Shown here piece after piece: positions 1,548 to 1,811 of a DNA stretch of 10,796 nucleotides. How positions within the stretch are numbered: the first letter of the stretch is position 1; each line of letters begins with the position of its first letter. Below the pieces are notes generated by a model. The model worked only from the letters and a program-made list of their open reading frames with translations. It was not told the origin of the DNA and did no database searches. Source of the stretch: Octopus sinensis (taxonomy: Eukaryota); the NCBI RefSeq assembly GCF_006345805.1, contig NW_021827297.1, positions 1 through 10,796 on the forward strand, read 5' to 3'. The translations under genes and the position numbers were made by a program.

Positions 1548-1811
1548 TGATAAAAATGGTAAGTTAACAAAAGAACGAAAGAGACCTCGATATTATGTAA
1601 ATAGAGGAATTTATCTGTAAATATAATATGTGACAATTATTCGGTAGCCATGATAAAACTCCGAGTTTCAGATGCCAGGGTCATTTTCAAACCATTTTTT
1701 CCGATGGCCGGATAACTGAAGAGATTGCAGCGTGGATCTCCACCCCGGCATCCGAAAATCGGGGCTTTATCATGGCTACCGAATAATTGTCATATATTAC
1801 ATTTACAGATA
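1547..1811. mobile_element. Probable Penelope-like element terminal (pseudo-LTR) fragment with inverted duplication, flanked by (TA)n
   Basis: 70-bp inverted repeat 1612-1681 / 1742-1811 with 7 mismatches. The left (minus-oriented) copy extends further, to ~1547. It contains a hammerhead-ribozyme motif. Inverted pLTRs plus hammerheads are established Penelope features; the family assignment is inference. Confidence 0.65.
1707..1776 (+). ncRNA. Degenerate type I hammerhead ribozyme motif
   Basis: Stem I GCCG-GATAA (1707-1715) pairs with TTATC-a-TGGC (1767-1776). Core CTGAAGA at 1716-1722; G1723/C1753 close stem II, which has an inner GTGG-atct-CCAC hairpin; GAAA at 1754-1757. Stem III/NUH is mutated in this copy (ATCGGGG-CT) but intact in the inverted copy (GAAA-CTC-G-GAG-TT). 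Confidence 0.6.

What the first reader, a model, noticed from the sequence alone, without database searches (positions are those of the whole stretch)
1612..1811. Hammerhead ribozyme split across the two arms of a Penelope-like inverted repeat
Seen: the + copy has stem I (GCCGGATAA / TTATCaTGGC), CTGAAGA-G...C-GAAA, but a mutated stem III and cleavage triplet. The inverted copy, read on minus, keeps GAAA-CTC-G-GAG-TT-TTATCATGGC, a near-palindromic stem III with a 1-nt loop and a GUU triplet, but is truncated before the CUGA core. Combining the two reconstructs a complete type I hammerhead with an unusually long stem II (~30 nt). Established: Penelope-like elements carry hammerheads in their pLTRs, often with short palindromic stem III that is thought to act as a dimer, and they often form inverted terminal structures. 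Inference: this is a relic of a ribozyme-bearing, (TA)n-targeting PLE/retrozyme-like family. It is invisible to the ORF track and is the best candidate for an undescribed system here.
Basis: partly seen in the sequence, partly recalled or inferred. Interest (0 to 1): 0.75.

Follow-up and report, generated by a model that had tools for sequence, protein, structure and literature searches.

The report
Decayed Hydra-Penelope end with hammerhead
This is a worn, mirror-image pair of end pieces of a Penelope-like jumping gene whose longer copies encode a reverse transcriptase and an endonuclease; the predicted self-cutting hammerhead RNA is whole in hundreds of other copies and only damaged here, so it is likely a new family of a known kind and not a split ribozyme.

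Summary
The ribozyme is not functionally split. The two arms lie on opposite strands, and 756 genomic arms carry the whole motif in one piece; this copy has three point changes in stem III and the triplet. Walking upstream gives a 3'UTR, GIY-YIG endonuclease, CxCX5C linker, RT and RWK motif, the marks of Hydra-clade Penelope-like elements. It is a sister family of the published Hydra-1_Obim (about 57% RT identity by eye, different ribozyme). Window 1546-1810 is the known layout: a 5'-truncated inverted copy, a one-sided 67-nt tail, and insertion in (TA)n. What is sharper than the papers I read: 27 of 27 head-to-head pairs not chosen for the window's shape have exactly one tail, the arms share rare variants, and 25 of 27 read through the ribozyme site. 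This fits two coupled reverse-transcription starts on uncleaved RNA. Cleavage is untested, within-family covariation is absent, and Rfam misses the motif. The scan has noted this design before on other DNA, including this genome. Verdict: new member of a known kind, low interest.

The parts
1546..1612 (-). 67-nt 'tail' of the inverted arm, between 3' end site A (+44 from the predicted cut) and site B (+111); in tandem copies it runs on into the 5'UTR and ORF start
   Evidence: continuation to the ATG in L152 and L154
1585..1607 (-). possible bulged hairpin in the tail (4+4 bp, 2-nt bulge, 5-nt loop); function untested
   Evidence: pairs kept in 60-69 of 69-70 arms with letters, no double-sided change among the commonest types; pairing probability only 0.04-0.07 in the isolated window tail
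1613..1681 (-). inverted, 5'-truncated copy of the element's 3' end: part of the stem II 3' strand, GAAA, intact palindromic stem III (1666-1658), GUU triplet, stem I 3' strand; 3 differences from the majority in 69 positions, all C>T
1679..1681 (.). head-to-head junction; 3-nt overlap (GGT) by BLAST ends, not resolved by a stricter aligner
1679..1810 (+). direct, 5'-truncated copy of the element's 3' end (starts 87 nt upstream of the cut, ends at site A, no tail); 9 differences from the majority in 132 positions
1707..1776 (+). decayed type I hammerhead: stem I 1707-1715 / 1767-1776, core 1716-1722, stem II 1723-1752, GAAA 1754-1757, stem III 1757-1765 broken at 1758, 1763, 1765; predicted cut between 1766 and 1767 in intact copies
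1508..1547 (.). (TA)n target run, left
1809..1823 (.). (TA)n target run, right
1472..1507 (+). unique flank that is duplicated in inverted form beyond the right end of the insertion
1826..1863 (-). inverted copy of 1472-1507 (89% over 36 nt), followed by a further (TA)n run

Best explanation
Window 1546-1810 is an old, 5'-truncated head-to-head insertion of the 3' end of a Penelope-like retrotransposon, likely of the Hydra clade, in a (TA)n run; its predicted hammerhead is whole in the family and decayed here. Shown: the same end joins, in longer copies, a roughly 1-kb 3'UTR, a GIY-YIG endonuclease and an RT; arms end at two fixed sites 67 nt apart; each head-to-head pair has one tailed and one tail-less arm. 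Inferred mechanism: the element's RT-endonuclease nicks both strands of a (TA)n run and primes two cDNAs on uncleaved element RNA, one at site A and one at site B. Both stop early and are joined head to head, often through short overlaps or filler. The ribozyme likely processed tandem or read-through element transcripts as a dimer through its palindromic stem III, possibly helped by the protein. This copy is predicted inactive.
For: Family: 2171 candidates, 40 scored, 41 near-full-length rows including the window; 1844 exact 25-mers and 756 intact ribozyme motifs, controls 0. ORF link: L043/L080 runs from the endonuclease into the end piece; L061 matches 1710 nt of it; L111 and L112 hold inverted short arm, RT, endonuclease, 3'UTR, ribozyme and tail. 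Motifs in 31 loci (30 distinct; many truncated): CxCX5C 21, KYxG 20, CxxC before E 18, RT motifs 7/12/14, RWK 3 rows = 2 loci. Tail rule 27 of 27, binomial p 7e-9 against 0.5. The tail-less arm reaches further upstream in 12 of 27 pairs, so it is not a fold-back copy of the tailed arm. Arms share 21 rare non-CpG variants against 3.3 (max 9) in 500 mismatched pairings. 25 of 27 shorter arms extend more than 3 nt upstream of the cut. Intact copies fold stems I and II (z -2.2 and -2.4 in 2 of 4 intact 71-nt copies); stem III self-duplex is -9.7 kcal/mol intact and -1.5 in the window + arm. Literature: two RT start sites explain the tail, uncleaved RNA is the substrate, and the protein is a predicted dimer (PMC11167929).
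Against: No intact ORF seen: L112 and L154, the two copies that reach the N-terminus, are frameshifted. The Pfam GIY-YIG hit is E 0.017, below its cut-off, and no RT family was hit. The DKT motif reads NKT in both loci that cover it. Unit length is about 3.2-3.3 kb against 'generally <3 kb'. No covariation beyond shuffles within the family (240 of 500 shuffles reach the score). Two of four intact copies fold no better than shuffles. The two-copy cofold MFE does not leave the triplet open. RNA reads show no pile-up of ends at the cut. 31 of the 58 loci not chosen for the window's shape showed no head-to-head pair. No tree was built.
Confidence: 0.88

Rival explanations
1. Same element, but the inverted pair arises by self-priming or fold-back of a single strand (on an antisense template, as proposed by Arkhipova et al. 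2013), with the tail set by endonuclease resolution rather than by two coupled RT starts.
For: The 5' ends of the two arms lie within 25 nt in 14 of 27 pairs (6.8 expected; 5 of 10000 permutations). Arms share rare variants. Some junctions sit on short palindromes (L012, L025, L028). Family RNA is read on both strands. The model is stated in PMC3846280 (passage).
Against: In 12 of 27 pairs the tail-less arm reaches further upstream than the tailed arm, which one cDNA started at the tail end cannot supply. The near-symmetry is not significant in the 12 least-selected pairs (580 of 10000), and there is no rank correlation.
Confidence: 0.3
2. A working composite ribozyme assembled from the two arms at this locus.
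For: The intact core and the intact stem III are both present within 200 bp.
Against: They lie on opposite strands. Either transcript folds into one long hairpin (-110 and -118 kcal/mol) that pairs the triplet region. The defects are private to this copy.
Confidence: 0.02
3. A dedicated non-autonomous unit (retrozyme-like) that amplified in this short form.
For: Many copies have a similar length (which selected for it). Short direct tandems exist: a 378-nt unit in L152, and 394- and 169-nt spacings in L138 and L151.
Against: The centre differs in nearly every copy. Arm starts range from +8 to beyond -600 and on into the ORF. The window copy is inverted, not tandem.
Confidence: 0.07
4. A DNA-transposon MITE with long terminal inverted repeats.
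For: Inverted arms of 73 nt and a TA context.
Against: One-sided tail, variable centre, unpaired arms, and continuity with an RT-endonuclease ORF.
Confidence: 0.01

Closest known systems
Hydra-1_Obim, Hydra clade of Penelope-like elements (Craig et al. 2021, PMC8557442; section 11, passages and supplement parts seen)
   Same: C-terminal GIY-YIG without CCHH, CxCX5C linker, RWK, (TA)n target, and a 3' hammerhead starting CTGAAGAG-ATG with a 1-nt-loop palindromic stem III. The RT stretch is about 57% identical (120 of 210 positions, counted by eye).
   Different: Different stems I-III and flanks. Stem II region about 30 nt against at most 24 (stems plus loop) in the 26 Hydra/Repbase rows of File S2. 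About 1-kb repeat-rich 3'UTR, unit about 3.2-3.3 kb, NKT in place of DKT. Two diagnostic motifs gave 0 hits in that supplement.
Hydra-2_aMil and Penelope-16_HM hammerheads (File S2 of PMC8557442)
   Same: Identical stem III, ACTC-G-GAGT.
   Different: Short 4-bp stem II, different triplet base, cnidarian hosts.
Inverted 5'-truncated pLTR plus tail of endonuclease-bearing PLEs (PMC3846280 passages; PMC8557442 Fig. 2 legend; PAc in vitro, PMC11167929 parts 1-2 of 4)
   Same: Head-to-head truncated copy, optional tail at one end, two 3' end sites, tail continuing into the next unit's 5' region.
   Different: Tail is 67 nt rather than 30-40. The ribozyme lies about 215 nt upstream of the ATG, not overlapping it as in PAc. 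The one-tail rule is counted here (27 of 27).
Minimal PLE hammerheads (Cervera and De la Pena 2014, PMC4209133, parts 1-2 of 4) and non-LTR retrozymes (bioRxiv 10.64898/2026.07.22.740005, part 1 of 5)
   Same: Type I, long helix II, palindromic helix III predicted to need a dimer, pairs on opposite strands 100-700 bp apart.
   Different: Retrozymes are direct tandem arrays. This locus is an inverted truncation of an ORF-bearing element, though L152 shows a short tandem derivative.

Membership tests
EN+ Penelope-like element | RT and GIY-YIG endonuclease linked to this end sequence | tested here: met
   L080, L111, L112; ORF broken in the long copies read; Pfam GIY-YIG E 0.017, below cut-off; Atlas look-alikes are unnamed animal proteins with PF26215 on 30-49% of members
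EN+ Penelope-like element | pLTR / partial tandem, inverted 5'-truncated copy, optional tail | tested here: met
   (tandem unit in L152; tail precedes the ORF in L154)
Hydra clade | C-terminal EN lacking CCHH | tested here: met
   order RT-linker-EN in L112; no cysteines between IIYE and KYVG, read by eye
Hydra clade | CxCX5C linker | tested here: met
   21 of 31 loci
Hydra clade | RWK motif | tested here: met
   3 of 31 rows = 2 distinct loci, the only ones seen to reach the N-terminus
Hydra clade | DKG modified to DKT | tested here: inconclusive
   NKT in both loci that cover it; the codon context would allow CpG decay from D, but that is unproven
Hydra clade | possible CxxC and CxH around the conserved E and N | tested here: inconclusive
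   CxxC 18 of 31; after N mostly C-P-Y, with C-P-H in at least 1 of 15
Hydra clade | hammerhead near the 3' end | tested here: met
   core and stem III match File S2 rows
Hydra clade | insertion in (TA)n | tested here: met
   most printed arm ends run into (TA)n or a related microsatellite, read by eye
Hydra clade | generally shorter than 3 kb (a tendency in the paper, not a rule) | tested here: not met
   L112 3570-6775 is 3.2 kb because of a long 3'UTR
Hydra clade | RT phylogeny groups with Hydra families | not tested
   only a by-eye identity of 120 of 210 to Hydra-1_Obim
Type I hammerhead ribozyme | CUGANGA, GAAA, NUH with stems I-III | tested here: met
   family majority; 756 exact motifs; not met by the window's own + arm
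Type I hammerhead ribozyme | covariation of stems | tested here: inconclusive
   93.3% of cells paired, but covariation equals the shuffles in 52 copies
Type I hammerhead ribozyme | match to an Rfam hammerhead model | tested here: not met
   no hit at E<=10 in the window or in L031
Type I hammerhead ribozyme | site-specific self-cleavage | not testable with these tools
   fragmented RNA reads show no end pile-up, which is a weak test
Non-LTR retrozyme | direct tandem units each with a full hammerhead, no ORF | tested here: not met
   the window copy is an inverted truncation; met only by derivative loci such as L152
MITE | fixed TIRs, fixed interior, TSD, no RT link | tested here: not met
   a TSD cannot be read inside (TA)n

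The most novel reading that the evidence does not exclude
The one-tail rule is strict because each insertion is made by one dimeric RT-endonuclease on one uncleaved RNA. The two subunits are fixed on opposite sides of the 67-nt tail, so one target end always starts at site A and the other at site B. The two cDNAs advance together and are joined to each other. That would explain tail, head-to-head layout and near-symmetric truncation in one step, and the thousands of arms of this family make it countable.
Probability: 0.35. Interest if true: 0.5.

Novelty: new member of a known kind. Interest (0 to 1): 0.22.

Why it matters
As a locus it is one dead copy among thousands. As a family it adds a high-copy Hydra-type element whose predicted ribozyme Rfam misses. 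Its two sharp 3' ends and 27-of-27 one-tail pattern are a usable statistic for an open question: how Penelope-like elements make inverted ends and tails.

Tried and rejected
Rfam scans found no hammerhead. Covariation within the family did not exceed shuffles. Core conservation equalled flank conservation. Junction overlaps of 2-8 nt were 8 of 31 against 8 of 136 in a simulated null (Fisher p 0.003); 21 of 52 junctions had larger gaps or overlaps and were left out, so this is only a hint. Sequencing runs: no RNA holder listed. Three raw RNA runs of 'organism E' and one contig run were laid on the intact-type copy L035 at 85% likeness: 367-622 reads per raw run from about 6% of each run, both strands, mostly under 95% alike, no end pile-up. 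This says nothing about this locus. A protein search for longer relatives gave 0 of 1050 candidates; the near-length search gave 10 unnamed relatives at 36-59%. Pfam did not name the RT fragment. The idea that the outer inverted repeat is a second repeat family was rejected: 1 candidate, 2 exact matches, both in the window. The RT fragments 3 kb upstream in L080 read as a different PLE family and were not used. The tail hairpin was inconclusive. Lunse et al. 2017 on dimeric PLE hammerheads is recalled only and was not held. Searches for a prior description of this family or of a counted one-tail rule (supplement look-ups) found only the qualitative statements cited. Repbase and Dfam could not be searched and may already hold the family.

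Full report
Observation. A search of the own genome (G000, 2.7 Gb) with 1548-1811 gave 2171 candidates; 40 were scored and 41 near-full-length rows listed, the window included. Aligned, the other copies carry a complete type I hammerhead in one arm. The window's + arm differs at 1758, 1763 and 1765, where 28, 28 and 26 of 28 copies carry the motif letter. An exact pattern of proximal stem I, core, GAAA, stem III and GUU matches 756 places (380 forward, 376 reverse; reversed control 0), and a 25-mer just downstream matches 1844. The host is likely an octopus; this is inferred from the closest published family and comes from no call.

Not a split ribozyme. The intact stem III is on the minus strand and the intact core on the plus strand. 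Either transcript of 1546-1811 folds into one long hairpin (-110 and -118 kcal/mol) that pairs the triplet region. In the hammerhead fold, the window + arm scores -11.1 kcal/mol against -23.1 for an intact copy. Its stem III self-duplex is -1.5 against -9.7. This copy is predicted dead.

The parent element. Patterns from the upstream edge led through a repeat-rich 3'UTR of about 1 kb to a GIY-YIG-type endonuclease (L043/L080), a CxCX5C linker and an RT. L112 shows the whole layout: tail-less inverted short arm (3484-3569), a frameshifted ORF with RWK, NKT, RT motifs, linker and endonuclease, then 3'UTR, hammerhead and tail to 6775. L111 is built the same way. In L152 and L154 the tail runs on through about 105 nt of 5'UTR into the ATG; L152 is a 378-nt direct tandem. 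Motif counts over 31 loci (30 distinct, many truncated) are. Craig et al. 2021 (PMC8557442; section 11, passages, supplement parts) define the Hydra clade by these features and list Hydra-1_Obim with a hammerhead of the same type. Its RT is about 57% identical to ours (120 of 210, by eye), its ribozyme stems differ, and two of our diagnostic motifs have 0 hits in that supplement. Against the filing: NKT for DKT in both informative loci, 3.2 kb length, Pfam hits below cut-off, and no tree.

Anatomy of insertions. Arms end at two sites, +44 and +111 from the predicted cut, so the tail is 67 nt. I examined 58 loci not chosen for the window's shape: 22 after dropping 8 duplicates, 30, and 6 ORF copies. 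Of these, 27 had a head-to-head pair and 31 did not. All 27 pairs have exactly one tailed arm (p 7e-9 against 0.5); the 30 pairs in window-like loci agree but were selected for it. The tail-less arm reaches further upstream in 12 of 27 pairs, the tailed arm in 15. The two 5' ends lie within 25 nt in 14 of 27 (6.8 expected, 5 of 10000 permutations), but not significantly in the 12 least-selected pairs, and without rank correlation. Arms of one insertion share 21 rare non-CpG variants against a mean of 3.3 (max 9) in 500 mismatched pairings; gene conversion could also give this. Of 27 shorter arms, 25 extend more than 3 nt upstream of the cut and 1 ends within 3 nt of it; arms ending well downstream of the cut would be hard to detect. 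Non-CpG divergence from the majority is 4.5%.

How it likely works. Shown: layout, ORF link, two end sites, one-tail pattern. From the literature: in the anole element PAc the protein nicks AT-rich DNA on both strands and starts reverse transcription at two internal sites that bound the tail. It uses uncleaved RNA, is predicted to be a dimer, and is needed for ribozyme cleavage (PMC11167929, parts 1-2 of 4). Metazoan PLE hammerheads with palindromic helix III showed no activity as monomers and weak activity as dimers (PMC4209133, parts 1-2 of 4). Inferred: two primed cDNAs, one per target end and one per start site, truncate and are joined head to head; the ribozyme acts on other, tandem or read-through, transcripts. 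The rival is fold-back self-priming on an antisense template (PMC3846280, passages), which fits the near-symmetry but not, in its simple form, the 12 pairs with a longer tail-less arm.

Results against the ribozyme reading. Rfam gives no hammerhead hit. On 52 copies, which were picked by a core-motif pattern, 93.3% of cells pair but covariation equals the shuffles. Core conservation (97.1%) equals the 3' flank (96.5%). Two of four intact 71-nt copies fold no better than shuffles. RNA reads of a coded organism map on both strands with no end pile-up. Support for the fold therefore rests on the exact core and triplet, the predicted stems I and II, and agreement with other Hydra families, where the stem III palindrome is identical to two cnidarian entries.

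Novelty. Clade, layout, tail, (TA)n targeting and ribozyme type are published. The family itself and a counted one-tail rule were not found in six paper searches or two supplement look-ups; Repbase and Dfam were out of reach. The scan's notes hold no look-alike of this sequence but eight reports of the same design on other DNA, two in this genome, one with longer stem II than here (unchecked AI notes). Their tail-hairpin lead is compatible with this family but unproven. Verdict: new member of a known kind; interest 0.22.

Noticed in passing
window 1472-1507 and 1826-1863: A unique 36-nt flank is duplicated in inverted form (89%) on the far side of the insertion, each copy next to (TA)n. It was seen at 1 of 56 paired loci tested. 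Either a template switch during insertion or repair, or a pre-existing palindrome whose central (TA)n was the target.
   Followed up: partly
L152 (G000:C2:33080666-33083684): Retrozyme-like direct tandem of a 378-nt unit: hammerhead, tail, 5'UTR and ORF start, joined by an internal deletion. L044/L155 shows a similar deletion join; L138 and L151 show 394- and 169-nt direct repeats.
   Followed up: partly
L010 (G000:C15:47527644-47530914): A whole head-to-head insertion is tandemly duplicated at 345-nt spacing; its two arms share a private change in GAAA.
   Followed up: no
L080:5000-7200 (minus strand): A decayed RT plus C-terminal GIY-YIG-like ORF of a different PLE-type family lies about 2 kb upstream of the Hydra-type copy.
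   Followed up: no
window 10415-10525 / 10675-10785: A second inverted repeat (111 nt, 95%) around a (TTA)20 run; it looks like two opposed copies of another repeat.
   Followed up: no
window 3150-3219 (minus) and about 5230-5455: tRNA-like stretch (Rfam tRNA 25.1 bits, below the gathering score of 29) and a second repeat also seen in the flanks of several loci; probably SINEs (label recalled, not tested).
   Followed up: no
window 1427-1452: A lone CTGAAGAG-ATG ... GAAA string just upstream of the insertion, without matching stems; no other genomic copy was found, so probably chance.
   Followed up: partly
window 5625-7460 and 8317-9499: Long triplet microsatellites, (CAC/CAT)n and (TAA)n; they account for spurious low-complexity frames and Rfam hits.
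   Followed up: no
family stem II (rows): At least two subfamilies differ at several stem II positions, mostly by wobble-type changes, and an extra C sits between stem II and GAAA in the majority.
   Followed up: partly
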